Below, piece after piece: positions 22,833-63,670 of a stretch of 64,000 nucleotides of DNA; position 1 is the stretch's first letter; the number at the start of each line of letters is the position of its first letter. Under the pieces are notes generated by a model. That model saw only the letters and a program-made list of their open reading frames with translations, did not search any database and was not told the origin of the DNA. Position numbers and translations under genes: made by a program. The DNA comes from Candidatus Komeilibacteria bacterium (GTDB lineage Bacteria; Patescibacteriota; Patescibacteriia; UBA1558), in the NCBI GenBank assembly GCA_048538235.1, contig JBLYPX010000001.1:679554-743553 (forward strand), written 5' to 3'.

Positions 22833-23639
22833 TTATATTGCTAATTGCAAACTACTACCCAATGTCTGTAATTTATTCCAGTTAAACGAATTGTCCTTAG
22901 CATCTACATAGGCCATCAATATATATTTAGGCTTATCTTCGTCTAACATATTATCTATTATAGCCATAACCACCATAGCTGAATCTTCTTTAGACAACTT
23001 AAGCTTGTCTACTAAAACCATCTCTAAGGCTAAACTCAGCAAAGCTGGCGTAGGTTTTGCTTCTATCATGGTTTCTGCAATCTCATCTGTATATTTAACA
23101 GCTATATATTTTTTTAATATACCTTTAAACCTTGAATCTTGTTGCCATGTTTTTACTAACTCTCCCGTACGTGCCAACCAAGATAAAACAACAACAACTT
23201 CCTCTGCCTTGCCTAGTCCTAAACTTTTCCAAAGATAGTTTCTAATTCTTGATACATCGCCGCTAGAAATTCTTCCTAGTTCTTCCATAGACTTTGTTAA
23301 AGATTTTGGCTTAATAAAATCTTTCCAAATAGTATTCACTGGAACAGAAACACTTTCATCCTCTAATTCTTCTTCCTCTTCCTCAAAATCTTCGTCACCA
23401 TCTACATAAAATGGCTCGATAATATTTTCACTCAAGGCATCAATAAAATCGTTAGCTTTTTCTTCTTCAAAATTAAGATCTTCAATTAAAAAATCAACTG
23501 CTTCTTTATTACTTGCTTCGCCTTCTAAAATTGCCTGTGCTAATTCACCAGGAAAATAATTATATTTTAAAGCTAATAAATTCAAATCTCCTAGAACTTC
23601 TTTTCTATTTAAATATTCTTCTATTTCTTTATTCTTCAT
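22833..23639 (-). CDS. acidic hypothetical protein, translationally coupled to the upstream giant ORF
   Basis: 268 aa with an Asp/Glu-rich stretch (DGDEDFEEEEEELEDES). Its start overlaps the stop of ORF 23629..28722 by 11 nt. Confidence 0.5.
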   Translation of the reverse strand: MKNKEIEEYLNRKEVLGDLNLLALKYNYFPGELAQAILEGEASNKEAVDFLIEDLNFEEEKANDFIDALSENIIEPFYVDGDEDFEEEEEELEDESVSVPVNTIWKDFIKPKSLTKSMEELGRISSGDVSRIRNYLWKSLGLGKAEEVVVVLSWLARTGELVKTWQQDSRFKGILKKYIAVKYTDEIAETMIEAKPTPALLSLALEMVLVDKLKLSKEDSAMVVMAIIDNMLDEDKPKYILMAYVDAKDNSFNWNKLQTLGSSLQLAI

Positions 23640-34600: not shown

Positions 34601-37600
34601 CAAAGGCTTGGTAATAATATTTCCATCATCATCAAACTCAATATTTAACCCTATTGTCGAAAAAGGAGCATCAGAATCAGGGAACAACCTACACGTTGGT
34701 TCAACAGTTATTCCATTAAAACCTACACCCGCTGTATCGTCACTTTCGTTGGACAACCTCAATACACCATCTTTATTTTTAGCCAACAAAGATTCTAAAT
34801 TAAACTTATTCAACAATGAGTAACCAGAATATTCTTGTCCTGACCAACCAGTTTCTCTGGCCGTATATACATCCTCAGTTAATATTTCATCACCTTTTTC
34901 TAACCAAGAAATACAAGTATTACCACTAGGAGATAACTCCGTACACCTGCCAAGGTCATAACAATACTCTTTCACACTTCCATCTATTTCTGTGGCATAA
35001 CTTGAAGATCTACAAGCTAGCCATTCGCTACACTCTCTATTTTTAGTTACTTTAATAACTTCATTACTATCACTTAAACAATCATCATCCTCTGGGGAGC
35101 ATCCTGTAACAACTGTTAAATTACCATTGTTTACTAAACTGTTATTATAGCTAGCATTACTGTCATATTGTCTTATTATCTCTCCATCACTATCTACATT
35201 AGATGTATCCAACATTAATACACAACCGCTTTCCCAAGAAACCTGTCCATTACAATCTGCACCATTTATACTGTTGCCGTTTATATAATAATATGACTGC
35301 GTCTCACTAATACCAACATTATCTAGATAGAATGTAGAATTGGTATCATTACCGAAAGCTATTGAACACCTTATGTTGTTATTACTTGAATCTGCTCTAA
35401 ATTTACCTGTAAAAGTTGAATATCTATCTGTTCTTGTTTGGGAACTTTTAATTAACATTTTATACACTCCACCACCCACACCTATAAATGAATCGTCATA
35501 TGATTCTATAGTAGCTCCTTCACAATATAGACCAACCGAATAACTACCAATACCCGTTGTACCAGCTAATGCATGAGCTACATTTATAAATCTTGGCAAA
35601 TTAAACGACATATCTTCTGCCTCCTCCTCACTTGGAGGTTGTTGGTCTCCACTAATAAATCTTAGATCAAACTTAACAGTATAATCTTTACCGCCATTTA
35701 TTGAGAAACTCTGTCTAAATGATTCATTACTACTTGGAGTATAATAATCTACATTTACAGCATTTGTATTATCCCTTCCTGATCCATTAAGATATGAAGT
35801 AAAGCCGTCACAGCTAGTATTATCTTCACACCAAAAATCTGGTATCTCTGGATCGTTATTTACATTTCCTAATTTCGTGTTTATTTCAAAATCTCCATTA
35901 AACAGCAAATTATCTCCTTGTGTTCCTTGAGGATCTATAAACTCTGTACAACCAACCGCAGCAGAATTACATTCTCCAGCAAACCCTATCCAATCAACAT
36001 CTCTTCTCTTATATAATTCACCGCTTTCATTACATGGTATTTTGTCTGCTTGGTTAGCATTATTAACGGATGATGTTAAATACCAACCAGTTAATTTCTG
36101 ACCATTAGACTCATAATTATCTAAGAAGGTACAAGTTCTTTCTCCTGGGTCTCTCATATACACAGTCTGTCCATCTGATTGATAAGCTTCACAATTTAAA
36201 GCATCCGTACCACAAAGCGTTAAATCATATCTTTCAGGATCATTTATTAAATATATATCTTCCCAAGAATCTATAACATTTGCATTATTATTATCAACTG
36301 CAAATTGAGGAGCACCCAAAACAGTACAACCCTTATCTCTACTACTGCAATAATATTGATTATCATCTACCAAATAAATTAATTCGTCTGCCTCTGTAGT
36401 TATATTTTGATCATCTGTATCCCAAGTCTGCGCACCAATTGCTTTAGTGTTTTTTGTATCAATAAACATTGAACAGCCAACAGATGATTCAGAGCACAAA
36501 CTATTGAAGCTGCTCAAATAATGAGTATTGCCTAATCTATCCTCATATTCATCACAACCCAAATCCTCAACAGTACATTGATCTGGTGTATTCCAAGAAT
36601 CTTTAACTAAATATAGATCTGAGTTGATTTCTTTCAAGACTATATTATCTATATAGTAATATGAATTATTTGCTGGGAAGTTCAAATTAAAACTAAGTAT
36701 ATTATTGGATGACGTGTCATCAAAATATACTGGACCTAGATTATACTGTTTCCATACACTCCTAACATCTAAACTGAAACTTGGGGCAAATAAATAATCA
36801 TTATCATTATTAAAGGATATCTGTGCTTGTGTTCTGGCTGCAGTACTAGCCTTTAACCAGAAAGATAATGTATATGATTTACCAGAACGAATACTTACAT
36901 TCTTTGAAAGAATTGTTTCACTATTAGCTTTGTATGAATGCCCACCTGTTACAACAGATTCTGAACTTAATGAGCCACCTGTCCAACCATGTGTTCCGGC
37001 CTCAAAATCATCGACAAACAATCTTCTGACATTACTACCATCACTACCCTTATATACTTTACAACCAACAGCCTCTGCTGAACACGAACCCGATTCAGAA
37101 GTTAAAACTAATGCCATATCTGCACTATCTATTGCTCTTCTTAACTGAACACAGCTATTACTTGCTTTAACAACACTGCTTTCTCTTACTAAATATTCAT
37201 CGTTATTCTCATCAACAAACCAACGACAGGCAGGATCATCTTCTTCTACACAAGTGTCTACACCATTAACTGTATCGTTACAAACATTAGTTGTTCCATT
37301 ATACATAACACTAGTACAAGGACCGTCGTTAATATCACTCTTTAATAAACTCCAAGATCTTAATTCAAAACCAGTTGTTTCAGATCCTTCCCAGGTATAA
37401 TATGTTGTAACGTCTGGGTCTGTATCTGGAACACACATTCTTAAAGAATTATAATACTCAACAGTTTCACCAGCTGTCATATTAGTAAAGGCTTCACAAC
37501 CAACCTCTTCTAAACTACAACTCTGAGCTGTGTCAGCAATGAAACTATCGTAAGTTATGATATCATCTGCGCCAAACCACCTATCTATTTCTGTATTTTC

Positions 37601-40258
37601 CTGTAAATATTGTTCATAACCACTACATTCAGATGAACAATAGTCACGACTACTCACTATTCCCGGTATTGATGGATCGCCATTAGTTGGAATGTATAAT
37701 TCACAACCAAGTTCATCTGCTTCACAACTTGGAGCATAATTATCACAAGCAGGAACCCAATTATTTTCACAATCTAAATAATCTGGAGCTTTTTTAATAT
37801 AGCTAATATTCTTAGATCCATAATTTACATAATTATTTGCCCTAGATCCAACTTCTAATTGAATATTATCAAACCACAAAGACCCTCCACTACTTGTCAA
37901 AACTCTGACTCTTGCTGAAGCAACTTTATCATTTGTAAAAAATGTACAACTACTCCTTTCCATATTTCTACTAACTGGAGTAAATTGTAAATCTACATTT
38001 TGTGGGTGTCCGCCAACACCAATAGAACAATCTCCCGCACCAATAGCAAAGGCTTGGCTATTATCACCACAATTTTTATTATTATCACATAGTTGCACTA
38101 TTACTCTAGCAGCAACCTCTTCACTGTTTGAAATTTGAGCGGCTGAAGCAGAAATAGTATATTGAGCATTTGGAGCTACTTTTACATTTGACTGAGCAAC
38201 ATTCCAGTTATAACTTTGTTTTATCTTACCATCTGAATATTCATCAGCTGTTCCCCAATTGTCTGGTTGAGCGCCGTCTGTGCTTTGACTAAAATCACCA
38301 TTATAAACCAAGTTAACACCTGGCTCTATTTTTATTAATTCTGAACAACCAGCATTCTGTCCCTCACAAGTACCGGCTTGAGCATTTAATCTTATCTGAG
38401 AATTTTCATCCCATATAGTTTCATTATCTCCATATGAAGAAACGGTTGTACTATACCAACGACAACCAACTTCATCTGCTGTACAGAAATCTAATGTATC
38501 TTTAATATAATAATCTGTTCCCTGATCGCTAGTATAAGAACGGCAAGAAGCATAAGCAGACAAACATTGCTCACCACCAAACTGCCATACATTTTTTTCA
38601 CGCGTACAATAACCCCACGCACCAGGTAAACACTCGCCATTACCATCTGTTTTTAAGCAAGTTTGAGCATCAACACAGATCTCACTTCTGTTTGTACTAC
38701 TTGGTGTTTCTAGAACAGGTCCATAACCACTAGCCCTACATTGAGCAGCTGGTGCTACTAATATCCAATCTGGGTCAATTAAACTTTCATAATCACTCCC
38801 AGAAACATTAAACTGGGCAATAACCTCACCTAGAGTTACTGGGCTATCTACTGGACTCTTTGATGCAGCTATTTCCCAACCCAAAGGTATAAATCTAGCC
38901 AGTCTCATCTTTTGTAAATTAGAATAACACAAAGCATCTTTGTGACAGTACTGTAAGTCACTATGTAGATGACTGTCTTTAGATATTAAAGGCGTATTAG
39001 CATCTATCAGTCTTAATTGAATTGCCTCTGCTACTGTAATTGGTTCATTCTTACTAAATGCAGAATAAAACTTTGGATCCATTACGCAATTATTCAAATT
39101 ACGAATATTTTCATCAGGACATATAACAAAATCATTAGCTGGATCATATTGTTCGATACTACTAGGTGAGACCGCAAACGCCTCTGAATAATATTTCTCT
39201 ATAGTTTGCGTATTTACAGGGTTTGCATATGGATTAACATTTAAATTCAAATCACTATTATCTGTACCGGGTGTTGAAGTGGCATAGGGAGTGCCAAATA
39301 AAAAATTATTAAGATTGAAATTTTTATATGTATTTATATCATACAAACCATTAATAAGATTTTCTAAAAATGTAGATGTTAGCGTGTTAGTAAATGTCGC
39401 TGCAGCACGAGCTAAAACAGGATGTTCAGAATTGGCAGCAACCTGCAATTTAAGACCTTGGAATTGTAAACCCATATTAGCCGGAGCTTGAGCAGCGCTC
39501 TGAACATCCTCAGCACCACTTTTCACCTGAGTTTTAGTAGTATTAAGCACTGGCCTATAGGTACTCTTTAAAGTTTGTATTATTTCATCCCTTTCTTGAG
39601 TTTCTTTTTTAGCTATTAACTTATCATTTAAAGATAGTTGGGCTGAAAAATCACTCTTACCTGGTCTAAATTGAATTTGTAGTCCTTCTACTAAAGCGGC
39701 CTGAGCTGCATCTCGCTCTGCTTGAGTACAACCTTCACCGAACAAACATGCCTGTTCTGCAACAAAAGACTCCCAGTTTCTGACAATGTTTGCCAAATCA
39801 CACCTAGGCTGTATTATTTGATCGTTCTTCAATAAAGACATTGTAATAGTAGCCTTTATATCTAAATCTGGATTACAAAGATCAATTCCTAGGTCTGACC
39901 ATTCATCACTTAAACCACCAATAAAATCACCAGCTGCTGCCCCTGCTGCATCTTTAAGAATGTTTTGAAAGACTCTTCCTTCAAATAACGTTCCTTGCCC
40001 CCTATCACCAGTGGCTAGTGAAACAGCTGTTTCGTAAGCAAATTTCTGCAAAAACATATCTGATGCATCTATAACCAATTGCTTAACTGTTAGTGTAACA
40101 AAATTTTTAACAACGTCTTTAATTTTCTGCCACGTAAATTCTATAACAGTGGCCGCATCAAAGGTCGGTAAAGCGTATGCTTGTTGCGGAGCTAGTGCAG
40201 CGCCAAAAATAGTAGTTAAAAAGCACACCGTTAAGATAATTGTTGTTATTTTACTCAT
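31634..40258 (-). CDS. giant (2874 aa) secreted Cys/Asn/Gly/Tyr-rich surface protein of unknown function
   Basis: It has a signal peptide (MSKITTIILTVCFLTTIFGAALAPQQAYA) and one uninterrupted 8.6 kb frame with no TM segments after the signal. It contains many Cys pairs. It is co-transcribed with the upstream 243-aa protein (6-nt gap). Confidence 0.7.
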   Translation of the reverse strand: MSKITTIILTVCFLTTIFGAALAPQQAYALPTFDAATVIEFTWQKIKDVVKNFVTLTVKQLVIDASDMFLQKFAYETAVSLATGDRGQGTLFEGRVFQNILKDAAGAAAGDFIGGLSDEWSDLGIDLCNPDLDIKATITMSLLKNDQIIQPRCDLANIVRNWESFVAEQACLFGEGCTQAERDAAQAALVEGLQIQFRPGKSDFSAQLSLNDKLIAKKETQERDEIIQTLKSTYRPVLNTTKTQVKSGAEDVQSAAQAPANMGLQFQGLKLQVAANSEHPVLARAAATFTNTLTSTFLENLINGLYDINTYKNFNLNNFLFGTPYATSTPGTDNSDLNLNVNPYANPVNTQTIEKYYSEAFAVSPSSIEQYDPANDFVICPDENIRNLNNCVMDPKFYSAFSKNEPITVAEAIQLRLIDANTPLISKDSHLHSDLQYCHKDALCYSNLQKMRLARFIPLGWEIAASKSPVDSPVTLGEVIAQFNVSGSDYESLIDPDWILVAPAAQCRASGYGPVLETPSSTNRSEICVDAQTCLKTDGNGECLPGAWGYCTREKNVWQFGGEQCLSAYASCRSYTSDQGTDYYIKDTLDFCTADEVGCRWYSTTVSSYGDNETIWDENSQIRLNAQAGTCEGQNAGCSELIKIEPGVNLVYNGDFSQSTDGAQPDNWGTADEYSDGKIKQSYNWNVAQSNVKVAPNAQYTISASAAQISNSEEVAARVIVQLCDNNKNCGDNSQAFAIGAGDCSIGVGGHPQNVDLQFTPVSRNMERSSCTFFTNDKVASARVRVLTSSGGSLWFDNIQLEVGSRANNYVNYGSKNISYIKKAPDYLDCENNWVPACDNYAPSCEADELGCELYIPTNGDPSIPGIVSSRDYCSSECSGYEQYLQENTEIDRWFGADDIITYDSFIADTAQSCSLEEVGCEAFTNMTAGETVEYYNSLRMCVPDTDPDVTTYYTWEGSETTGFELRSWSLLKSDINDGPCTSVMYNGTTNVCNDTVNGVDTCVEEDDPACRWFVDENNDEYLVRESSVVKASNSCVQLRRAIDSADMALVLTSESGSCSAEAVGCKVYKGSDGSNVRRLFVDDFEAGTHGWTGGSLSSESVVTGGHSYKANSETILSKNVSIRSGKSYTLSFWLKASTAARTQAQISFNNDNDYLFAPSFSLDVRSVWKQYNLGPVYFDDTSSNNILSFNLNFPANNSYYYIDNIVLKEINSDLYLVKDSWNTPDQCTVEDLGCDEYEDRLGNTHYLSSFNSLCSESSVGCSMFIDTKNTKAIGAQTWDTDDQNITTEADELIYLVDDNQYYCSSRDKGCTVLGAPQFAVDNNNANVIDSWEDIYLINDPERYDLTLCGTDALNCEAYQSDGQTVYMRDPGERTCTFLDNYESNGQKLTGWYLTSSVNNANQADKIPCNESGELYKRRDVDWIGFAGECNSAAVGCTEFIDPQGTQGDNLLFNGDFEINTKLGNVNNDPEIPDFWCEDNTSCDGFTSYLNGSGRDNTNAVNVDYYTPSSNESFRQSFSINGGKDYTVKFDLRFISGDQQPPSEEEAEDMSFNLPRFINVAHALAGTTGIGSYSVGLYCEGATIESYDDSFIGVGGGVYKMLIKSSQTRTDRYSTFTGKFRADSSNNNIRCSIAFGNDTNSTFYLDNVGISETQSYYYINGNSINGADCNGQVSWESGCVLMLDTSNVDSDGEIIRQYDSNASYNNSLVNNGNLTVVTGCSPEDDDCLSDSNEVIKVTKNRECSEWLACRSSSYATEIDGSVKEYCYDLGRCTELSPSGNTCISWLEKGDEILTEDVYTARETGWSGQEYSGYSLLNKFNLESLLAKNKDGVLRLSNESDDTAGVGFNGITVEPTCRLFPDSDAPFSTIGLNIEFDDDGNIITKPLQMPQANFCSQGAGCECDYTEVNYTQGETRYYRSNYNGFTAIGDSQIKSVNNYRGFWGFCLEYDYSRTIIGYAGSTHPCLTWMPLDILSGEYNPSGVNIADDLNLDFDNMYYCLQSEGNYPYAGDVSIPVSLDLGEQAPENESYVWDWQHCGYYWMEDYYARTPEIVSPYAGFQDNSTIALCMNGGQQYPNVSVGVSNQDVEIWDEDSFGKEESVIESIEFNNVAAGWQIPGHDDYFVNGIGTDGVLKCQDDIYGNDPDECMLLNINGSSTITLTSEDEYSCVGGNINEDFCGPEDSKIWVKAFYTIDSVGGNPGITFDDESFIWHNFTRNNGGVFPFLDGEDGCLSANEFAGGYANCNNWNEYAMYAFFIVGFQDGDFDGVDNVSRYEVSFINPLEYMDGYYNIVQGYIYNVTVNYLQPDTSATEICTDFIRVGSPKFNNFINGMATFKDVDDNEISLDIDQYYSWYGMSNVDFNLNNYNQFIQVENENTSLSGVVAGTPYSVSQSGVIGMLDGSSNIDGHYYGVDSEDQDLVSAINSNFNGGDNNGLQWLKNLFARLIEKFSWDYGQDRYEQASFSEISTISSGDNVDLRQVELDSNGVVSEGNTGITINDKNSGNILMESNIYNATVKFYAYNETGDQLPLSRLMVDWDDGSSIFGENDETVSLKNHKNICVNSCTNSISDDNYWNDFNPTTSWGGTATENTSTGITTITQTSSRDDNWVIYRNTEIADEKFTAGDVVTLEYDFKISNNITATRSMANYWCYSTGYCSQSNLLLPGQTESYPYLPFADTTSLSNVVNGVSYIPNTNSGCPDGTETLEDGWCHYSSTVTIPEEMVTSCYNDNNTSGNCLRDLGVGRLNHTPGLSSDQSYQIKNLKLRQGCRSNAECTGTNNLCVPKNIGNDLNYCVDDYENGIGYFSFNHTYICSNPPTEVDGKPACVYTPKVYVEDNWGFCSKGSGSNCGVDTNGDGIFEAIIGWEGYDGEIILIP

Positions 40259-45140: not shown

Positions 45141-47513
45141 TTAAATAACAATATTAACTAATTTATTTGGAACATAAATTACTTTCTTTGGCTCATTACC
45201 TTCCAAAAACTTTTGTACTCTTTCCGAGCTTTTAACAAGCTCTTCAACTTCTTTCTGAGTTATACCAACTTTAACATTTAGTTTATCTCTGACTTTACCA
45301 TTAACTTGAAACACTAATTCAAAACTATCTTCTTTCAAATATTTCTCATCATAATTTGGCCACTTTTCTTTAAAGATAGATTCTTTATTACCCAAGTTAA
45401 ACCACAACTCTTCACATAAATGAGGAGCAAAAGGAGCTAGTATGATTAAGAATTTTTCATACGATTCTTTATCTAAAGCCTTTACTTCATTGATTAAGAT
45501 CATCATAGCAGAAATAGCTGTATTAAATCTAAAGTCAGCAATATCTTCTCCTACCTTTTTAATGGTTTTGTGTAACAAAGAAATATGACTATCTCCTAAA
45601 TTAATATCTTCAACTTTTAATGCATTCACCTTATCTAAAAATCTTCTAATTCCAATAATACCCTTTGTATCCCAAGGCTTTGCATCCTCAAGTGGACCCA
45701 TAAACATTTCATACATTCTTAATGTGTCTGCACCATATGCTTCAACAACTTCATCTGGATTAATTACATTACCACGAGACTTAGACATCTTTTCTCCGTC
45801 AGGTCCTAAAATAAGGCCTTGGTTAATTAACTTTGCAAAAGGTTCTTCAATAGGAACATGACCTAAATCAAATAAAACCATATTCCAAAAACGTGCATAT
45901 AGTAAATGTAATACTGCATGTTCTGCACCTCCAACATATACATTTACTGGTAACCAATGTTTTAATTTCTTTTTATCTGCAAATTCTTTTGAATTAGTAG
46001 GATCAATAAATCTTAACCAATACCAAGATGATCCAGCCCATTGAGGCATGGTGTTTGTTTCTCTCTTTGCAGACGCCTTACACTTTGGACACTTAACATT
46101 TACCCATTCTTCAATACCACCCAGTGGTGATTCACCTGTACCAGTTGGTTCATACCTATCTACTTCAGGAAGCTCTAAAGGTAATTCTTTCTCATTAACA
46201 GGTAAAATACCACATTTATCACAATGTATTAATGGAATTGGCTCACCCCAATATCTTTGTCTAGAAAACACCCAATCACGTAGTTTATAATTTATAGCTG
46301 CCTTACCTAACTTTTCTTTTTCTAACCACTTAATAATTTTTTTCTTAAAATCTTGTGTCTTTAAACCATCATATTCACCAGAGTTCACAGCAATGCCATC
46401 GCCAGCAAATAATTCATCATCTCCGCCTTCAACAACTTTAATAATTTCTAAACCATATTGCTTGGCAAACTCATAGTCTCTTTCATCATGAGCAGGTACT
46501 GCCATAATTGCACCCGTGCCATAGGAAGCCAAAACATAGTCTGCGACCCAAACAGGTATCTCTTTATTATTAACTGGATTGATTGCTTTTATACCTTTTA
46601 ATTCAACTCCAGTTTTTTCTTTAGCCAAATCTGTTCTTTCTAAGTCAGATTTATTTTTAGCATTTTCTATATATTCTACAACCTCAGTATAATTATCTAT
46701 CTTATCTTTAAACTTTGTAATCATTTCATGTTCTGGAGCTACTACCATATAGGTTGCGCCAAATAAAGTATCTGGTCTAGTAGTAAACACTTTTAATAAA
46801 TAATCCTCTATCTTAAAATCTACCTCAGCTCCTTCTGACCTACCAATCCAATTCTTTTGTAAGGCCTTAATAGATTCTGGCCAATCTAATTTATCTAAAC
46901 CATTAAGCAATCTGTCTGCATAGGCTGTAATTTTTAACATCCATTGCTTCATATCTTTCTTTTCAACTTCAGTATGACATCTATCGCACTTACCTTGTAC
47001 TACTTCTTCATTAGCAAGGCCTGTCTTACATGAAGGACACCAATTAATTGGTACTACTGCCTCATAAGCAAGTCCCTTATTAAATAATTGTAAAAATATC
47101 CACTGCGTCCATTTAAAATATTCTGGATCGGTTGTATTAACTTCTCTTGACCAATCATATGAAAAACCTAAAGACATTATCTGTCTTTTAAAGTTGGCAA
47201 TATTTTTAATAGTTGTTTCTCTTGGATGAGTACCGGTTTTAATTGCATAATTCTCAGCTGGAAGTCCAAAAGCATCCCAGCCCATTGGATGTAAAACATT
47301 CATTCCCTTAAACCTTAAATACCTACAATATATATCTGTAGCTGTATAACCCTCTGGGTGACCAACATGAAGGCCTTGTCCAGAAGGATAAGGAAACATA
47401 TCTAAAACATAGACATTGTCTTTTTTTGAATCGCCATTGCACTTATTCACTTGCCATTCCTCCCACTTTGTCTGCCACTTTGGCTCTATTTCTTTGTGAT
47501 TATATTTATCCAT
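45141..47513 (-). CDS. leuS: leucyl-tRNA synthetase
   Basis: 790 aa with HIGH (LHVGHPEGY), KMSKS ([10 protein letters not shown]), and LeuRS-type CP1/Zn and anticodon-binding regions. Confidence 0.9.
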
Positions 47514-57366: not shown

Positions 57367-59058
57367 ATGTCAGAAGATAAAACTACAAAACTAAATATTA
57401 CTTCTGGAGATAAATCTGAAGAGCTATCTAAAAAACTTAGCTCTATACATGATGCAGATCTTGAAAAGGAAGTAGAAAAACAAGCCATCGCTGATGGTTT
57501 TGACTATATTAATTTTAAAGGCTTTCCTATTGGTTCAGATGCACTAGCCTTAATACCCCTAGAAGAAGCTAAAGAAAATGGCGTTCTTTGTTTTTATTAC
57601 ACTGGCGAAGAAATGCGCTATGCAACCACAACTCCTAAGGATGAAAAAGTAAAAGAATACTGCAAAAAAAAGGCTGAAGAGCTGCATGCTAGTTTCAACA
57701 TATACCAGATATCTAAACTAAGTTGGGAAATAGCTATTAAGGCATATGAAAAAGTTCCTAAGCTTAGAAAAATTGAAAAAGGAGTAAGTATTACAGAAGA
57801 AGAGCTTGAAGAAATGAAAAAGCAGATTAATACTCATGAAGACTTACAAAAAAAATTAACAGAAGTAAGTACAACACAAGTTATTGGTTTAATAATAGCT
57901 TCTGCTCTTAAATTTGATACCTCAGATATACATATAGAAGCTGAGGAAAAAGATGTTAAGTTAAGACTACGTGTAGATGGCGAACTTGCTACAGTAGCTA
58001 CTATGCCAAAAGAAATGTGGCCAAAGATAATATCTCGTGTAAAACTATTATCTGACCTTAAACTTAATTTAACAACTGCCCCACAAGATGGTAGATTTAC
58101 TATTAAACTAACTGACGATAAAATAGACGTTCGTGTTTCTACCATGCCAACTGCTTTTGGTGAAAGTGTTGTTATGCGTTTATTAAAATCTTCAGCAACT
58201 TCTCTAGCTTTCTCAGATTTAGGTTTACAAGGAAAATCTAAAAAAGATTTAGAATATAATATTAAAAGACCTAATGGTATGATTATTACCACTGGTCCTA
58301 CTGGTTCTGGTAAAACAACAACTCTTTATGCAATTCTAAATGAATTAAATGATGAGGCTACAAAGATTATCACCATGGAAGATCCAATTGAATATAAGCT
58401 ACAAGGATTAAATCAAAGCCAGGTTGATCCAAGTAAGGGCTATACTTTTGCTGATGGGTTAAAGTCTATTCTAAGACAAGATCCTGATATAGTAATGGTT
58501 GGAGAAATTAGAGACTTGGAAACAGCAGAGACTGCTATTAACGCAGCTTTGACTGGTCACTTAATGATATCTACAATTCATACTAATTCAGCAGCTGGTG
58601 CTATACCAAGATTCTTAGCAATGGGCGTTAAACCATTTTTATTAGCTCCATCTATTAATGCTATCATGGGTCAAAGATTATTAAGAAGACTTTGTAAAGA
58701 ATGTAAAAAAGAATATACACCTGAACCAGAAATGATGGAAAAGGTTAAAAAGCTATTATCTGAAATATCTCCAGCTTCTGGTGATCAATTATCTGAAGAA
58801 GAATTAAATAATCTTAAATTCTATAAAGCTGATGGTTGTGATAAATGCCATGGTGGTTATAAAGGCAGAGTTGGTGTTTATGAAGTACTAACAATGAATG
58901 AAGAAATAGAGCAGATGATATTATCTGGTAAAGTTTCTGAAGCAGAGGCTCAAACTATTGCTATTAAATCTGGTATGGTTACTATGGTTCAAGATGCCTT
59001 AATTAAAGCAAAAGATGGCATTACTTCTTTAGAAGAAGTGTTTGACAAGACTGAATAA
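57367..59058 (+). CDS. second GspE/PilB-family secretion ATPase (motifs intact)
   Basis: 563 aa. Walker A is TTGPTGSGKTTT, Asp box is DPDIVMVGEIRD, His box is TGHLMISTIHTNSA, and the tetracysteine is CKECKK...CDKCHG. It has a GspE-N-like N-terminal region. Confidence 0.85.
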   Translation: MSEDKTTKLNITSGDKSEELSKKLSSIHDADLEKEVEKQAIADGFDYINFKGFPIGSDALALIPLEEAKENGVLCFYYTGEEMRYATTTPKDEKVKEYCKKKAEELHASFNIYQISKLSWEIAIKAYEKVPKLRKIEKGVSITEEELEEMKKQINTHEDLQKKLTEVSTTQVIGLIIASALKFDTSDIHIEAEEKDVKLRLRVDGELATVATMPKEMWPKIISRVKLLSDLKLNLTTAPQDGRFTIKLTDDKIDVRVSTMPTAFGESVVMRLLKSSATSLAFSDLGLQGKSKKDLEYNIKRPNGMIITTGPTGSGKTTTLYAILNELNDEATKIITMEDPIEYKLQGLNQSQVDPSKGYTFADGLKSILRQDPDIVMVGEIRDLETAETAINAALTGHLMISTIHTNSAAGAIPRFLAMGVKPFLLAPSINAIMGQRLLRRLCKECKKEYTPEPEMMEKVKKLLSEISPASGDQLSEEELNNLKFYKADGCDKCHGGYKGRVGVYEVLTMNEEIEQMILSGKVSEAEAQTIAIKSGMVTMVQDALIKAKDGITSLEEVFDKTE

Positions 59059-59475: not shown

Positions 59476-59506
59476 AAACACCGACGAGAACGCCGGTGTT
59501 TTTCTT
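59475..59506. terminator. bidirectional rho-independent terminator
   Basis: AACACCGACG-AGAA-CGCCGGTGTT is flanked by A/T runs on both sides. It sits between convergent genes. Confidence 0.6.
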
Positions 59507-60531
59507 TATTCTTTTTCTTTAATTTTATCTAAGACTTCTTGCATAGCATCTCTAGCCCTGACTATACTCCGTTCTTCTCTTTCACTAATCTTAACCTTTG
59601 AGTTCTCTAAATATTCTGTTAGTTCTTTTACACCGGTTGAAAAAATATTAATAATCCAAGCATTGTACTTTTCTTTACCCATTGTTTTCTCAAGAGGTTT
59701 AGTCTTATCTGTTAAATCCATCATCTTTCTAAAATCTATAGGATCGCCAGTTACATCATCCCTGCCATAATCTGAAGCTTTCTCTTGCAAGAAAAATCTT
59801 GGCACGTGACCATATTCTAATCTATCTGGTATAGTAACAACTGGTTTATGTATAATAGAACTTTTTTTACCCGGATCCTCGTTAGCAGATCTTTGAATAG
59901 CAAGATGAACAATATTAGCTGGATCAGATTCTTCCTTACCAGCTAGCCTGTCTGTATCAATAACTATAAACTCATCTATCTGGTCTAAATAATCCTCCCT
60001 TGGTCTTGATTCAACAGCATTAACCCCTTCAATCCCAAGCTCTCTTATTCCTTTTACAAAAACTTTACTATCATGATCACGAGATTCAATTCCATTATTA
60101 CCTTTATCTGGACTAACAAAATTAAATTTTTCTGTTAAATGCTTTGATGTTTCTCCTCTTTTATTAACAGTTTCCTGATGCAATGAATAGAAAATCTCCT
60201 GATTAGACATTCCTTTGTTTCTTCTATTAAACTTTACATCAGCATAATCTTGAAAGGTTCGATCTATCAAAGCTAGATAATCTGCCACTGTTATTTCTAA
60301 ATCGTTATGCTCTACACTCCAAGATACTTTAATAATATCATCTGCACGCAATGGTATTCTACTATCATTAACTAAAATAGGGTGTTCACAGTTATATTTA
60401 CCTTTAATAACCCTAAACTTTTCTCCATCTGGCAATGGTAGCTCTTTTCTAATAATTTTTTTTCTTACAACTATTTTCTTTTCTTGTTTAGGCTCTTCTA
60501 AATTATCTAATTTTAATCCTTCAAATCCCAT
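59506..60531 (-). CDS. hypothetical protein translationally coupled to valS
   Basis: 341 aa and hydrophilic, with no motif I can assign. Its start lies 2-4 nt after the valS stop. Confidence 0.5.
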   Translation of the reverse strand: MGFEGLKLDNLEEPKQEKKIVVRKKIIRKELPLPDGEKFRVIKGKYNCEHPILVNDSRIPLRADDIIKVSWSVEHNDLEITVADYLALIDRTFQDYADVKFNRRNKGMSNQEIFYSLHQETVNKRGETSKHLTEKFNFVSPDKGNNGIESRDHDSKVFVKGIRELGIEGVNAVESRPREDYLDQIDEFIVIDTDRLAGKEESDPANIVHLAIQRSANEDPGKKSSIIHKPVVTIPDRLEYGHVPRFFLQEKASDYGRDDVTGDPIDFRKMMDLTDKTKPLEKTMGKEKYNAWIINIFSTGVKELTEYLENSKVKISEREERSIVRARDAMQEVLDKIKEKE

Positions 60532-60535
60532 ATTA

Positions 60536-63500
60536 TTATTTTAATTTATTTAACTTTTCTTCTGCCTCCGCTAATTTTTCCTTTTCTTTATTTACAACCT
60601 CAGCAGGAGCATTGCTTACAAAATTATCATTACCAAGTTTTTTTTGCAAGGTTTCAATATATCTTTCTAACTCTTCCCTTTGCTTTGATTGCATTTTGTT
60701 GGCCTCACTCTTATCTATGTCTAAGGCAATATCTACGCCTTTAATATGTAGCTCTAACCAACTTTTATCCTTGGTTGGGACTATCTTTACTTTTGCCAAT
60801 TTCTCAATAACACCAACATTACTACTAATAACCGTGTTTAAATCTAATTTACAATTAATAACTTTAGCTGGATCTAATTTATTCTCTCCTTTAGCATTTC
60901 TAATACCTGTGATGATATCCATTACAATGTTAAATTCTTTATTTCTATTCTTTTTTAAGAAATTAAACAAACCATGTTTATTTGCTGGCCACTGACTAAT
61001 TATTAATTGACCATTATTGAAATTACTCCAAATAGCTTCTGTTACATATGGCGCGAATGGATGCCATAGTTTTAATAGCTGTCCTAGAATATATAACAAG
61101 ATATCATCCTTATTTGTTTCAACCTTACTAATCTCAATATACCAATCTGCAAACTTTGACCAAGTAAATTCATATAATCTTTCAATGGCTGGAGAAAACT
61201 TTAATTCGTCTAAATCTTTAGTTGTACTATCAACTAATAAATCCAGTTCAGATAATATCCATTCGTCTGCAATTGTTTTTGCCTTAGATTTGCTAGTTAT
61301 AACTTTAACATCTTTAACAGAGCTTAAAATATATCTAGAAATATTCCAAAGCTTATTTACAAAGTTTCTATAACCCTCAATCTTTTCTTCATAAAGCCTC
61401 ATATCATTACCAGGTGTTGCTCCCACCATCATAGAAAGTCTTAAAGCATCAGCACCAAACTTATCTATCATTTCAATAGGATCAATACCATTGCCCAGTG
61501 ACTTACTCATCTTTCTGCCTTGCTTATCTCTAATTAAGCCATGAAGATAAACTGTTTCAAAAGGAATCTCATCAAGTAGATAAGTGGTCATAATAATCAT
61601 ACGAGCTACCCAAAAGAAAAGAATATCATAACCTGTTTCCATAACAGAGGTTGGATGAAAATTCTTTAAGTCTGGGCTATTCTTTACCCATTCTTCCCAA
61701 GAGCTATATTTAGAAAAATCTTGATCAAGCAATGTTGAGAATGTCCAAAGTGCAGATGAAAACCAAGTATCTAGTGTATCTTCATCTTGCTCCCATTCTT
61801 TAAGATTATAGCTACCGTCTGGTAAAGAGTAACGAACAAAGTTACCGAAAAGTGGTTTGTAATCACTTAACTCTTTTGCATCTCCACCTTTAATTAACAT
61901 TTCTAAAGATCTAATAAATGCATTATGCGTAATAACTAATATTTTCTGTCCTGCATATTTTTCATCTACTTTCTTTAGAAATTCTTCTCCTCTTTTCATC
62001 ATTGACTCATAGGTTTCTTCTTCGTCTCCTGGAATGTCGTAATTTATTTTATCCTTATAATAATCTGGATTATCTTTTTTAATATCTTTAACAAGTTTTC
62101 CTTCAAATGAACCATAATTACGCTCAACTACTAATTCATCTACTTCATAATCTACTCCCAACTCTTCACTAATAACCTCAGCCGTTTGTCTAGAGCGCAT
62201 TAGAGGGGAACAAATAATCTTTGCTATTTTTTCTTCTTTAAGTTGAGCTACCTTATCTTTTATCTCTCCCACTTTTTTTTCATCAAGTGGTGTGTCTGTC
62301 TGCCCCTGAACGCGTCCTTCTTGATTCCAATCTGTAAGACCGTGCCTGCTAATAATTAATTCTGTAATATACCTTGGTACTAATTTTTCGTCTCCTTTAT
62401 ACCAAACTGGAATTCTATGCCCCCACCAAATCTGACGAGAAATACACCAATCATGTAAATTATTCATCCAATTAAAATATACCTTTTCAAACTTATCTGG
62501 CATTATATCTATATCTCCAGATTTTACAGCATTGATAGATAATTCTTTCAAACTCTTACCTTTACTTGGTATTTTTTTATTAACATCTACAAACCATTGT
62601 TCTGATGGCAAAGGCTCTATTGGAGTATTACATCTATAGCAAACAGATAAATTATGTTCATAATCTTCGTCAATGTGATCTATAAGTCCCATCTTCTCCA
62701 TATCCTTTAAAATGGCCTCTCTAGCATCAGTAGTTGTCATTCCTGCATATTTACCACAATTAGCCATCATCTTACCGTCTTCATCTATTATTTGACGCAT
62801 AGGTATATTATTCTTAAGCGCCATCTCATTGTCTATAAAACTATGAGCTGGGGTAACTTTAACAGCACCTGAACCAAATTCTGGATCAACTGCTTTATCT
62901 GTAATAACTCTAACTTTAAATTCTCCTAAAACACCTGGTATCATATAATCTTTACCAACCATATCTTTATACCGGTCGTCATCTGGATTAACAGCTACAG
63001 CCGTGTCACCAAGTTTTGTTTCTGGGCGAGTAGTGGCCAGTACAAAAGGACCATATTTTATCCAATACAGTTTTGTTTTCTTATTCTCATACTCTACTTC
63101 ATCATCAGCTAGGGTTGAATGACAACGAGGACACCAATTAACAATTCTATGACCACGGTAAATTAAACCATCATCATACATTTTCTTAAAAGCCATATTA
63201 ACAGCTTTAGACAAACCATCTGAAAATGTATAACGTTCTCTACTCCAATCTACAGAAGAACCCATTCTCCTTATCTGATTACGAATAGTATCTTGTGATT
63301 CACCAACATAGGTTTTAACTCTATCTAAAAACTTTTCTCTGCCTAAATCTTCTTTAGTCTTATTATCTTCCTGAGCAATAATCTTTTCTACTTTATTCTG
63401 AGTGGCAATAGCTGCATGATCTGTACCTGGTACCCATAGAGTGTTTTCACCAAGCATTCTATGATAACGAACCATAGTATCTTGGTAGGCGAGCATAGCT

Positions 63501-63670
63501 GCGTGTCCTAAATGTAAAACACCAGTTGCATTTGGTGGTGGCAGAGCTACTGAAAAATGTTTTTTCTTTGTTTTAAGATTATCTGGATTAAATAATCCAG
63601 AATTCTCCCACTGACTATATATATCTTGCTCAAATTCTTGAGCATTATAGTTTTTAGCTATTTCTTTCAT
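60536..63670 (-). CDS. valS: valyl-tRNA synthetase carrying an inserted histidine-phosphatase (PGAM-like) domain
   Basis: 1044 aa with HIGH (HLGHAAM), the ValRS signature TRPETKLGDTAVAV, WCISRQIWWGHRIP, DTLDTWFSSALW, KMSKS (GRKMSKSLGN) and a C-terminal coiled coil. Residues ~433-628 form an extra domain carrying RHGLTDWN, SPLMRSRQTAEV, ERNYGSFEG and VITHNAFIRSL. Confidence 0.9.
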   Translation of the reverse strand: MKEIAKNYNAQEFEQDIYSQWENSGLFNPDNLKTKKKHFSVALPPPNATGVLHLGHAAMLAYQDTMVRYHRMLGENTLWVPGTDHAAIATQNKVEKIIAQEDNKTKEDLGREKFLDRVKTYVGESQDTIRNQIRRMGSSVDWSRERYTFSDGLSKAVNMAFKKMYDDGLIYRGHRIVNWCPRCHSTLADDEVEYENKKTKLYWIKYGPFVLATTRPETKLGDTAVAVNPDDDRYKDMVGKDYMIPGVLGEFKVRVITDKAVDPEFGSGAVKVTPAHSFIDNEMALKNNIPMRQIIDEDGKMMANCGKYAGMTTTDAREAILKDMEKMGLIDHIDEDYEHNLSVCYRCNTPIEPLPSEQWFVDVNKKIPSKGKSLKELSINAVKSGDIDIMPDKFEKVYFNWMNNLHDWCISRQIWWGHRIPVWYKGDEKLVPRYITELIISRHGLTDWNQEGRVQGQTDTPLDEKKVGEIKDKVAQLKEEKIAKIICSPLMRSRQTAEVISEELGVDYEVDELVVERNYGSFEGKLVKDIKKDNPDYYKDKINYDIPGDEEETYESMMKRGEEFLKKVDEKYAGQKILVITHNAFIRSLEMLIKGGDAKELSDYKPLFGNFVRYSLPDGSYNLKEWEQDEDTLDTWFSSALWTFSTLLDQDFSKYSSWEEWVKNSPDLKNFHPTSVMETGYDILFFWVARMIIMTTYLLDEIPFETVYLHGLIRDKQGRKMSKSLGNGIDPIEMIDKFGADALRLSMMVGATPGNDMRLYEEKIEGYRNFVNKLWNISRYILSSVKDVKVITSKSKAKTIADEWILSELDLLVDSTTKDLDELKFSPAIERLYEFTWSKFADWYIEISKVETNKDDILLYILGQLLKLWHPFAPYVTEAIWSNFNNGQLIISQWPANKHGLFNFLKKNRNKEFNIVMDIITGIRNAKGENKLDPAKVINCKLDLNTVISSNVGVIEKLAKVKIVPTKDKSWLELHIKGVDIALDIDKSEANKMQSKQREELERYIETLQKKLGNDNFVSNAPAEVVNKEKEKLAEAEEKLNKLK

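What the first reader, a model, noticed from the sequence alone, without database searches (positions are those of the whole stretch)
61787..62374. Histidine-phosphatase (PGAM-like) domain inserted in-frame into the catalytic core of ValRS
In E. coli ValRS the conserved blocks WCISRQxWWGHRIP and DVLDTWFSSALW are about 35 aa apart. Here they are about 205 aa apart. The extra ~195 aa carry every hallmark of branch-1 histidine phosphatases, in the correct order. The motifs are LIISRHGLTDWN (RHG motif with the phospho-acceptor His), CSPLMRSRQTAEV (second Arg), VERNYGSFEG (general-acid Glu, compare ERHYGxLxG of dPGM) and ILVITHNAFIRSL (second His). The reading frame is continuous and the flanking synthetase motifs are intact, so this is not a disrupted gene. 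I do not know of an aminoacyl-tRNA synthetase described with an embedded, apparently catalytically competent phosphatase domain. The domain could act in tRNA 3'-end or nucleotide processing, regulation, or moonlighting.
Basis: partly seen in the sequence, partly recalled or inferred. Interest (0 to 1): 0.85.

Follow-up and report, generated by a model that had tools for sequence, protein, structure and literature searches.

The report
Phosphatase domain embedded inside valyl-tRNA synthetase
The valyl-tRNA synthetase of this Candidate-Phyla-Radiation bacterium really does carry a complete, apparently active histidine-phosphatase domain spliced into a surface hairpin next to its active site; I found no paper describing this architecture, yet it recurs in hundreds of ValRS and IleRS genes of these bacteria, and its purpose is unknown.

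Summary
The ORF at 60536-63670 (-) encodes a 1044-aa ValRS with HIGH, KMSKS and editing motifs intact. Residues 438-626 are a full-length His_Phos_1 domain (Pfam E=1e-38).

The insertion sits in the CP3 hairpin, the zinc knuckle of T. thermophilus ValRS, between two active-site motifs. H443, R492, E516 and H582 are invariant in 62 of 62 insert-bearing homologues, so catalysis appears to be under selection.

New findings:
- CP3 is an insertion hot spot holding 1-4 phosphatase domains, a serine hydrolase and unknown modules.
- Syntenic orthologues 89-93% identical differ by a clean presence/absence of the domain.
- In the query's own clade, bodies 86% identical carry phosphatase cassettes only 31% identical, at a different insertion point.
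- Peregrinibacteria IleRS carries two tandem His_Phos_1 domains at the same site.

Best reading: a working ValRS with a dispensable accessory phosphomonoesterase. The substrate is unknown, and a tRNA 3'-end role is possible but untested. I found no paper describing this.

The parts
60536..63670 (-). Complete valS ORF: 1044-aa ValRS with an embedded phosphatase domain, stop codon included
   Evidence: ORF list. NCBIfam valS equivalog NF004349 scores 974 bits against a cutoff of 704. The full model matches T. thermophilus ValRS 1GAX with TM 0.85 normalised to the target.
62378..63670 (-). N-terminal ValRS part (res 1-431): first half of the Rossmann fold, CP1 editing domain, CP2 and the WCISRQ motif
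   Evidence: Pfam tRNA-synt_1 covers residues 17-431, profile 2-255 of 414. It aligns to 1GAX residues 5-421.
63503..63514 (-). HIGH signature (HLGH, res 53-56)
   Evidence: H53, G55 and H56 are invariant across 79 ValRS with and without the insert.
62831..63034 (-). CP1 editing-site motifs TTRPETKLGD (213-222) and TPAHSFID (273-280)
   Evidence: T213, R215, E217, T218 and D280 are invariant in alignment A1.
62408..62449 (-). WCISRQIWWGHRIP (res 408-421), the 'CP2-CP3 linker' motif on the upstream flank of the insertion site
   Evidence: It is invariant in homologues. The equivalent IleRS motif lines the tRNA A76 / reveromycin pocket (PMC7955072).
62360..62407 (-). First strand of the CP3 hairpin plus linker (VWYKGDEKLVPRYITE, res 422-437). 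The phosphatase leaves the hairpin here.
   Evidence: DSSP strands 423-425 and 428-430 in the AF2 model. Comparison with insert-less orthologues.
61793..62359 (-). His_Phos_1 domain (res 438-626), PhoE/PspA/CobC-like capped phosphomonoesterase fold
62342..62347 (-). R442-H443 of the RHG motif; H443 is the predicted phospho-acceptor nucleophile
   Evidence: H443 is conserved in 100% and R442 in 90% of 62 insert-bearing ValRS. It aligns with the RHA motif of PspA.
62195..62197 (-). R492, second phosphate-binding arginine
   Evidence: 100% conserved.
62123..62125 (-). E516, predicted general acid
   Evidence: 100% conserved.
61925..61927 (-). H582, second catalytic histidine
   Evidence: 100% conserved.
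61754..61792 (-). Return strand of the CP3 hairpin and the QDEDTLDTWFSS motif (res 627-639), on the downstream flank of the insertion
   Evidence: It aligns to 1GAX residues 447-459. The Trp of DTWFSS corresponds to T. thermophilus W456; that this residue lines the valine pocket is from my recollection of the literature.
61499..61513 (-). KMSKS signature (res 720-724)
   Evidence: K720, S722, K723 and S724 are invariant.
60863..61267 (-). Anticodon-binding domain (res 802-936)
   Evidence: Pfam Anticodon_1 E=1.8e-31.
60539..60697 (-). C-terminal coiled-coil tRNA-binding arm (res 992-1044)
   Evidence: Pfam Val_tRNA-synt_C E=4e-11. Long helices 987-1043 in the AF2 model.

Best explanation
This is the ValRS of a Candidatus Komeilibacteria (Patescibacteria/CPR) genome. 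Its CP3 surface hairpin hosts a complete, catalytically competent histidine phosphatase of the PhoE/PspA/CobC subgroup. This hairpin is the zinc knuckle of T. thermophilus ValRS. It lies between the WCISRQxWWGHxIP motif, which lines the tRNA-A76/adenylate pocket, and the DTWFSS motif, which lines the valine pocket.

Shown: one polypeptide with two complete catalytic units. The synthetase keeps HIGH, KMSKS and its editing motifs. The phosphatase keeps R442/H443, R492, E516 and H582 in every homologue examined. The domain is inherited mostly vertically, evolves somewhat faster than the body, and is repeatedly deleted cleanly or swapped for a divergent His_Phos cassette. It is therefore an accessory module, not needed for aminoacylation.

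Inferred: ValRS charges tRNA-Val normally. The inserted domain works by the standard family mechanism: H443 attacks a phosphomonoester to form a phospho-histidine, E516 protonates the leaving group, and water releases phosphate. Its fold includes the cap subdomain of small-molecule phosphatases, and its best subfamily match is to a ribose-5'-phosphate (alpha-ribazole-P) phosphatase. The substrate is therefore most likely a small phosphomonoester or a nucleotide-like or RNA-terminal phosphate, not a folded phosphoprotein.

Not shown: whether the reaction is mechanistically coupled to aminoacylation (for example on a phosphorylated tRNA 3' end, or on AMP), or whether ValRS merely carries the enzyme. 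I put roughly equal weight on the two.
For: Domain identity and completeness. An intact ValRS. Confident fold of the whole protein including the insert (pLDDT 91.2, pTM 0.84; insert blocks 85-96).

Catalytic residues in 62 of 62 insert-bearing ValRS: H443, R492, E516 and H582 at 100%, N449 at 97%, R442 at 90%.

Not an artefact: the architecture appears in dozens of 90%-identity clusters from NCBI, JGI, ENA and Logan. P0006 is found with identical sequence on at least 24 contigs. There is no compositional break at the junctions.

Site is CP3, next to the A76 pocket.

Dispensable and modular: the syntenic orthologues P0006/P0076 (89% identical) and the pair P0058/P0098 (93% identical) differ by a clean indel. 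Body and insert identity correlate (r=0.61), but P0001 and P0003 have bodies 86% identical and inserts 31% identical at a different insertion point.

Recurrence in a second synthetase: Peregrinibacteria IleRS has two tandem RH[GA] domains at the same site, in 111 of 118 sequences examined.
Against: No substrate is identified. The domain scores below the cutoff of every curated phosphatase equivalog.

The domain is acidic (pI 5.0, net charge -9). Embedded domains are no more basic than stand-alone ones (median pI 6.2 against 5.9), which gives no support for extensive tRNA binding.

The relative geometry of the two active sites could not be measured, because no coordinates or PAE are returned.

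Whether this genome has a second, insert-less ValRS could not be checked. The genome scan found none in 80 assemblies, but the test is weak.

Clean loss in close relatives shows the activity is not essential, so a near-neutral 'permissive site plus insertable domain' history cannot be excluded. The strict conservation of catalytic residues argues against a purely structural role.
Confidence: 0.6

Rival explanations
1. tRNA-end repair or detox module. The phosphatase, together with the serine-hydrolase and ASCH modules seen at or near the same site in relatives, acts in cis on the 3' end of tRNA-Val before or after charging. It would remove a 3'-phosphate or pyrophosphate (of the kind installed by toxSAS toxins) or other blocking groups, so that the synthetase repairs its own substrate.
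For: The insertion emerges between two active-site motifs, one of which lines the A76 pocket. The distribution is patchy, with clean losses and cassette swapping between near-identical hosts, a pattern often seen in conflict-related modules. The same site collects other hydrolases (Ser_hydrolase PF06821), and a genuine ASCH domain is inserted nearby in P0058. The same domain family was acquired by two different class Ia synthetases. tRNA-specific 3'-CCA pyrophosphorylation by toxSAS is an established kind of damage (10.1101/2021.04.30.441581; PMC11559606). From my own knowledge, the HD domain of the E. coli CCA-adding enzyme is a precedent for a phosphatase fused to a tRNA 3'-end enzyme.
Against: The domain is acidic and is not enriched in basic residues. 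Its fold is the capped small-molecule type. There is no PADLOC match. There is no toxin or RelA_SpoT gene in the window. From my own knowledge, histidine phosphatases are not known to act on RNA 3' ends, and the known toxSAS antidotes are HD-domain hydrolases.
Confidence: 0.15
2. Pure hitch-hiking fusion. A general metabolic phosphatase (for example for phosphoserine, sugar phosphates or a vitamin intermediate) is expressed as a domain inside ValRS because CP3 is a permissive loop and His_Phos_1 has adjacent termini. There is no functional coupling to translation.
For: The closest solved relatives are metabolic phosphatases: PspA, PhoE, the riboflavin-pathway HFP and GpgP. Stand-alone 177-aa proteins are as similar to the insert (38-39% identity) as IleRS-embedded domains are (30-33%). 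The pattern may be complementary: Peregrinibacteria carry the domains in IleRS, while the seven Peregrinibacteria/Peribacteria ValRS loci recovered are of insert-less length. Stand-alone tandem di-His_Phos proteins exist. Clean loss is tolerated.
Against: This does not explain why the same family was inserted repeatedly at the same internal site of two essential synthetases rather than at a terminus or in other proteins. It does not explain arrays of up to four phosphatases plus a hydrolase. It does not explain why a cassette was replaced by a 31%-identical one in hosts 86% identical.
Confidence: 0.3
3. Regulatory protein phosphatase. The domain dephosphorylates ValRS itself, for example after phosphorylation by a Hip-like kinase, or another translation factor, as PGAM5, Sts and SixA do for proteins.
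Confidence: 0.07
4. Inactive structural or tRNA-docking pseudo-enzyme, or an assembly or annotation artefact.
For: Some related cassettes have lost the Arg of RHG (FPHG or FVHG variants in P0016, P0029, P0064, P0034 and others).
Against: In the query's cassette type, all catalytic residues are present and are invariant across 62 sequences. The architecture is reproduced in many independent assemblies. The fold is confident.
Confidence: 0.03

Closest known systems
Bacterial ValRS (T. thermophilus ValRS, PDB 1GAX/1IVS)
   Same: It has the same domain order, signature motifs and editing domain. The model superposes on 1GAX with TM 0.85 normalised to the target, and the valS equivalog HMM scores above its cutoff.
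   Different: T. thermophilus residues ~422-446 (the CP3 zinc knuckle) are replaced by a hairpin that carries a 190-aa enzyme domain. The four zinc-binding cysteines are absent in the query.
PhoE / PspA / CobC-type branch-1 histidine phosphatases (PDB 1H2E, 4IJ5, 9MMH, 6E4B)
   Different: Identity is only 18-24% in the structural alignment. It scores below the cutoff of every curated subfamily (ribazole_cobC 100 bits against 163; PspA 79 against 350). It is embedded in another enzyme rather than free-standing.
Peregrinibacteria IleRS with two tandem His_Phos_1 domains (e.g. Ca. Peribacter riflensis, P0341)
   Same: The same domain family is inserted at the same CP3 position, between WxISRxRxWG and DxWFES, of a sister class Ia synthetase, with catalytic motifs retained.
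   Different: The host enzyme is different, there are two domains instead of one, and they are only ~30-33% identical to the ValRS insert. In the searches made here it appears only in databases and automatic annotations, not in a paper.
Other synthetases with accreted domains: IleRS with a GNAT domain (NCBIfam NF040702); cyanobacterial CAAD insertions in ValRS/IleRS/LeuRS/GluRS (CAAD from my own knowledge)
   Same: These are housekeeping class I synthetases that acquired an extra, non-editing domain.
   Different: The domain families are different (an acetyltransferase and a membrane anchor). I did not establish their insertion positions; my recollection is that CAAD is not inserted in CP3. 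Neither is a phosphatase.
Nucleic-acid enzymes fused to phosphatases: Rv2228c-type RNase H/CobC-like acid phosphatase (NCBIfam NF005567); yeast TFIIIC tau55 histidine-phosphatase domain (PDB 2YN0/6YJ6); the HD phosphatase domain of the E. coli CCA-adding enzyme (the last from my own knowledge)
   Different: The first two are terminal fusions, and their roles are largely unexplained; none involves an aminoacyl-tRNA synthetase. The CCA-enzyme phosphatase belongs to the unrelated HD family.

Membership tests
Valine--tRNA ligase (class Ia aaRS) | Score above the curated equivalog cutoff for valS | tested here: met
   NF004349 scores 974 bits against a cutoff of 704. TIGR00422 scores 909 bits against 612.
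Valine--tRNA ligase (class Ia aaRS) | HIGH and KMSKS signatures, CP1 editing motifs, anticodon-binding domain and C-terminal coiled coil | tested here: met
   HLGH at 53-56, KMSKS at 720-724, TTRPET at 213-218 and D280. Anticodon_1 and Val_tRNA-synt_C are detected.
Valine--tRNA ligase (class Ia aaRS) | Overall fold of a solved ValRS | tested here: met
   Foldseek top hit is 1GAX, E=6e-62, TM 0.85 normalised to the target.
Valine--tRNA ligase (class Ia aaRS) | Aminoacylates tRNA-Val and is the cell's only ValRS | not testable with these tools
   This needs enzymology and the whole genome. No second copy was seen in 80 related assemblies, but the scan could have missed one.
Histidine phosphatase superfamily, branch 1 (Pfam PF00300) | Significant full-length profile match | tested here: met
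   E=1e-38, 133 bits against a cutoff of 21.7, profile 1-191 of 194.
Histidine phosphatase superfamily, branch 1 (Pfam PF00300) | Catalytic residues present: RHG His nucleophile with its Arg, second Arg, acid Glu, second His | tested here: met
   R442/H443, R492, E516 and H582 are present. H443, R492, E516 and H582 are invariant and R442 is in 90% of 62 homologues, in register with PspA.
Histidine phosphatase superfamily, branch 1 (Pfam PF00300) | Alpha/beta fold of the family | tested here: met
Histidine phosphatase superfamily, branch 1 (Pfam PF00300) | Phosphatase or mutase activity through a phospho-histidine intermediate | not testable with these tools
   This requires an assay of the purified protein and of the H443A mutant.
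Alpha-ribazole phosphatase CobC (TIGR03162) | Score above the equivalog cutoff | tested here: not met
   100.6 bits against a cutoff of 162.9. It is the best-scoring subfamily, but the domain is not a member.
Phosphoserine phosphatase PspA (NF045917) and dPGM (NF038349, TIGR01258) | Score above the equivalog cutoff | tested here: not met
   PspA scores 79 bits against 350. dPGM_arch scores 67 bits against 225.
Known anti-phage defence proteins (PADLOC-DB) | Match to any defence-system model | tested here: not met
   No hits at E<=0.01 for the insert, the downstream ORF, or the hydrolase and unknown modules of relatives.

The most novel reading that the evidence does not exclude
The CP3 hairpin of CPR class Ia synthetases is a docking site for exchangeable 'acceptor-end maintenance' cassettes: histidine phosphatases, a serine esterase and unidentified modules, with an ASCH domain inserted nearby in one relative. 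These would act in cis on tRNA-Val or tRNA-Ile 3' ends, removing phosphate or pyrophosphate or blocking acyl groups installed by toxins or damage. That would make this an aaRS-embedded tRNA repair or counter-defence system whose cassettes turn over under conflict-type selection.
Probability: 0.12. Interest if true: 0.9.

Novelty: new variant of a known kind. Interest (0 to 1): 0.68.

Why it matters
Aminoacyl-tRNA synthetases are among the most conserved enzymes known. In bacteria they rarely acquire whole foreign catalytic domains, and to my knowledge hardly ever inside the catalytic core.

Here a second, apparently active enzyme sits between two active-site motifs of ValRS. The same solution recurs in IleRS of another CPR phylum, and the site behaves as a modular slot:
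- it holds 1-4 phosphatases, an esterase and unknown modules;
- the domain is lost cleanly in close relatives;
- one cassette has been replaced by a divergent one in nearly identical hosts.

If the phosphatase is coupled to the tRNA acceptor end or to aminoacylation products, it would be a new layer of tRNA quality control or repair. If it is not coupled, it is a clear natural example of domain-insertion tolerance in an essential enzyme and of genome economisation in ultra-small bacteria.

There is also a practical consequence. NCBI names these proteins only 'class I tRNA ligase family protein', so pipelines may score such genomes as lacking ValRS or IleRS, or may count the insert as a glycolytic phosphoglycerate mutase. 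The system is easy to test, because one recombinant protein carries two assayable activities.

Tried and rejected
- Assembly chimera: rejected. The architecture is reproduced in many independent assemblies, and there is no GC or skew break at the junctions.
- Exact-sequence lookup of the query protein: no contig is on record in that index, although the protein itself is in NCBI on an 860-kb contig.
- RNA elements: no Rfam family and no tRNA gene anywhere in the window.
This is inconclusive, because the search patterns came from the query.
- Basic-surface test for tRNA binding: negative. Insert pI is 5.0, and embedded domains are no more basic than free ones.
- Defence-system link: no PADLOC hits. 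The small RelA_SpoT gene seen 4.4 kb from valS in locus L001 has no counterpart in the window.
- ASCH assignment for the ~140-aa modules of P0029 and P0030: not supported by Pfam even at E<=1, so I call them unknown. Only P0058 has a significant ASCH domain, and it lies after DTWFSS.
- Literature: seven full-text searches found no paper describing a histidine phosphatase inside an aaRS. Mukai et al. 2017 (PMC5370408) describe other CPR aaRS domain swaps only.
- AFDB fold search: that library was unavailable.
Full report
**1. The observation**

The region lies in one uninterrupted ORF, 60536..63670 on the minus strand, encoding 1044 aa. Pfam finds tRNA-synt_1 in two pieces; the first ends at residue 431, at profile position 255 of 414. 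It also finds a full-length His_Phos_1 domain at residues 438-626 (E=1e-38, profile 1-191 of 194), then Anticodon_1 and the ValRS C-terminal arm.

NCBIfam's valS equivalogs score far above their cutoffs: 974 bits against 704, and 909 against 612. The insert scores best against alpha-ribazole phosphatase CobC (100 bits, below the 163 cutoff), then PspA, dPGM and PhoE-like models, all below cutoff.

The finding's coordinates correspond exactly to residues 433-628. The spacing between WCISRQ and DTWFSS is 226 residues, against 40-48 in insert-less relatives.

**2. It is real and folded**

The identical protein is in NCBI on an 860-kb contig of a 'Candidatus Komeilibacteria' MAG. Among the 120 best homologues, about 70 clusters from NCBI, JGI, ENA and Logan carry the same ValRS plus PF00300 architecture, down to 49% identity. 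One homologue, P0006, is found with identical sequence on at least 24 contigs from different samples.

Base composition shows no break at the junctions.

- AlphaFold2 on a 79-sequence alignment gives mean pLDDT 91.2 and pTM 0.84. The insert blocks score 85-96.
- The body matches T. thermophilus ValRS 1GAX with TM 0.85 normalised to the target.
- The domain modelled alone has pLDDT 93.

**3. Where it sits**

Alignment to 1GAX shows the insert replaces T. thermophilus residues ~422-446. In many relatives this segment is a CxxC...CxxC zinc knuckle.

In IleRS nomenclature, the WxxSRxRxWG motif is the 'CP2-CP3 linker' that lines the tRNA-A76 / reveromycin pocket. The segment that follows it is CP3, which carries a zinc motif in T. 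thermophilus IleRS (PMC7955072 and PMC7191050). The downstream flank DTWFSS contains the Trp equivalent to T. thermophilus W456. That this residue lines the valine pocket is my recollection of Fukai et al. 2000; I did not check it here.

The phosphatase is therefore grafted onto a surface hairpin whose two ends are active-site elements. The distance between the two active sites could not be measured, because coordinates are not returned.

**4. Both enzymes look functional**

Across 79 ValRS with and without inserts, the following are invariant: HIGH (H53, G55, H56), KMSKS (K720, S722-S724), the editing motifs (T213, R215, E217, T218, D280) and both flanking motifs.

Across 62 insert-bearing ValRS, conservation in the phosphatase is as follows:

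| Residue | Conserved |
|---|---|
| H443, R492, E516, H582, S488, E552 | 100% |
| R560, G520 | 98% |
| N449 | 97% |
| R442 | 90% |

The rest of the domain is only ~30-60% conserved. That pattern indicates selection on catalysis, not only on fold.

**5. The site is a hot spot and the cassette is dynamic**

*Other contents of the site.* Between the same two motifs, other CPR ValRS carry:
- two His_Phos_1 domains (P0064);
- phosphatase, unknown module, phosphatase (P0016);
- the same plus a Ser_hydrolase (P0029);
- phosphatase plus alpha/beta hydrolase (P0061);
- a Ser_hydrolase alone (P0094);
- an unknown ~120-aa module inside the zinc knuckle (P0030, P0050, P0074), or that module plus a phosphatase (P0072).

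A ValRS fragment, P0121, carries four RHG domains, one of them upstream of the WCISRQ motif. P0058 additionally has a genuine ASCH domain (E=1.6e-9) inserted after DTWFSS.

*Patchy presence.* On a neighbour-joining tree of the ValRS body, insert presence is patchy. P0006 (insert) and P0076 (no insert) are 89% identical and lie in syntenic loci: trigger factor, TsaD, TsaE, valS, L32, NusB, RNase III, SMC. P0058 and P0098 are 93% identical and differ by a clean 177-aa indel.

*Cassette types.* The inserts fall into three sequence clusters plus a singleton, and use two insertion points: before the hairpin, or inside it as in the query.

*Inheritance.* Insert and body identities correlate overall (r=0.61), so inheritance is mostly vertical. 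The query's own clade is the exception. P0001 and P0002 carry cluster-1 cassettes, while P0003 and P0004 carry cluster-2 cassettes at the other insertion point. Their bodies are 79-86% identical, yet their inserts are only 23-36% identical. That is a cassette replacement.

**6. The same thing happens in IleRS**

An exhaustive HMMER search with the insert found His_Phos_1 domains inside proteins that score above the ileS equivalog cutoff. A follow-up search shows that all 120 best relatives of one of them carry PF00300. They include the IleRS of the 1.25-Mb Candidatus Peribacter riflensis contig.

In 111 of 118 of these IleRS sequences, the gap between WxISRxRxWG and DxWFES is ~450 aa and holds two RH[GA] domains. 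JGI's pipeline auto-names some of them 'isoleucyl-tRNA synthetase/bisphosphoglycerate-dependent phosphoglycerate mutase'.

The seven Peregrinibacteria/Peribacteria ValRS loci recovered are of insert-less length. The LeuRS encoded in this window (45141-47513, 790 aa) has no insert. Stand-alone 177-aa phosphatases are as close to the query insert (38-39% identity) as the IleRS-embedded ones are (30-33%). This suggests separate captures.

**7. Function**

*Shown.* Two complete catalytic units on one chain. The phosphatase is dispensable for ValRS, since it is lost cleanly, but it is under catalytic constraint where present.

*Inferred.* The phosphatase uses the family mechanism: an H443 phospho-intermediate with E516 as the acid. 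It probably acts on a small or terminal phosphomonoester, given the capped PhoE-like fold and the best match to a ribose-5'-phosphate phosphatase family.

*Open.* I could not discriminate between two possibilities: (a) cis action on something at the synthetase active site, such as a phosphorylated tRNA 3' end or AMP, and (b) a metabolic phosphatase that simply travels inside ValRS.

- For (a): the position between active-site motifs, recurrence in two synthetases, the accompanying hydrolase modules, and conflict-like turnover. tRNA-specific 3'-CCA pyrophosphorylation by toxSAS is a real kind of damage (10.1101/2021.04.30.441581; PMC11559606).
- Against (a): the domain is acidic and no more basic than free homologues. 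There is no PADLOC hit. No histidine phosphatase is known to act on RNA ends.
- For (b): the closest relatives are metabolic enzymes, the ValRS/IleRS distribution looks complementary, and loss is tolerated.

**8. Novelty**

Seven full-text searches found no paper describing a histidine phosphatase embedded in a synthetase. The sequences are in public databases, and some carry automatic bifunctional names. Both component families are well known, and domain accretion by synthetases is known. I therefore rate this a new variant of a known kind. It has an unusual internal location, a broad distribution and a modular evolutionary behaviour that I could not find described in the searched literature.

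Noticed in passing
related proteins P0016, P0029, P0061, P0064, P0072, P0094, P0030, P0050, P0074, P0092, P0121: The CP3 hairpin of CPR ValRS is an insertion hot spot. Between WCISRQ and DTWFSS these relatives carry two or more His_Phos_1 domains, a Ser_hydrolase (PF06821), an alpha/beta hydrolase, and ~120-140-aa modules with no Pfam match. The ValRS fragment P0121 carries four RHG domains in all, one of them upstream of WCISRQ. Some phosphatase copies have lost the Arg of RHG (FPHG or FVHG).
   Followed up: partly
related proteins P0127, P0133, P0200, P0280-P0398 (incl. P0341, Ca. Peribacter riflensis): Peregrinibacteria IleRS carries two tandem His_Phos_1 domains at the equivalent CP3 site, conserved across the 120 best hits. 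In P0133 the second phosphatase domain maps after the KMSKS region, just before the anticodon-binding domain.
   Followed up: partly
P0058, residues 647-732: A genuine ASCH domain (Pfam E=1.6e-9) is inserted after the DTWFSS motif of a ValRS that also carries a CP3 phosphatase. This is a second insertion site in the same enzyme.
   Followed up: no
P0001/P0002 versus P0003/P0004: The query's closest relatives have bodies 79-86% identical but carry a different phosphatase cassette (23-36% identical) at a different point of the hairpin. This indicates a recent cassette replacement by an unknown mechanism.
   Followed up: partly
window 59506-60531 (-): A 341-aa ORF starts 5 nt downstream of the valS stop codon on the same strand, so it is probably co-transcribed. 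It has no Pfam or PADLOC match and is not syntenic with valS in locus L001.
   Followed up: partly
window 31634-40258 (-) and 23629-28722 (-): Two giant ORFs of 2874 and 1697 aa have no Pfam family at E<=1e-5. Two further ORFs of 559 and 487 aa (17363-19042 and 15899-17362) also have no match.
   Followed up: no
window 45141-47513 (-): The LeuRS of the same genome is short (790 aa) and has no inserted domain, which makes it an internal control showing that the insertion is specific to ValRS here.
   Followed up: partly
window 11093-12865 (-) and 57367-59058 (+): Two PilB/T2SSE-type secretion ATPases lie in one 64-kb window, the second only 1.5 kb from valS. FtsH, an S1-domain protein, GyrA, NAD-dependent DNA ligase and an amidase were also identified.
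   Followed up: no
L001 537-1601 (-), absent from syntenic L004: A 354-aa RelA_SpoT-domain protein lies 4.4 kb from the insert-bearing valS of P0006. It is missing at that position in the insert-less orthologous locus, which has a Fic-domain gene there. This is a single anecdote, and there is no homologue in the query window.
   Followed up: partly
L007 (DATJQC010000108.1): A contig binned as 'Candidatus Nanoarchaeia archaeon' encodes a bacterial-type ValRS of insert-bearing length (3048 nt, 42% identity to the query). This is either mis-binning or transfer between CPR and DPANN.
   Followed up: no
window 1-64000: No tRNA gene and no Rfam family at gathering threshold in 64 kb. GC skew is strongly negative over most of the window, which goes with the predominance of minus-strand ORFs.
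   Followed up: no
database annotation of P0001 and relatives: NCBI names these proteins only 'class I tRNA ligase family protein', although the valS equivalog HMM scores above its cutoff. Automated pipelines may therefore report ValRS or IleRS as missing, or count the insert as a phosphoglycerate mutase.
   Followed up: no
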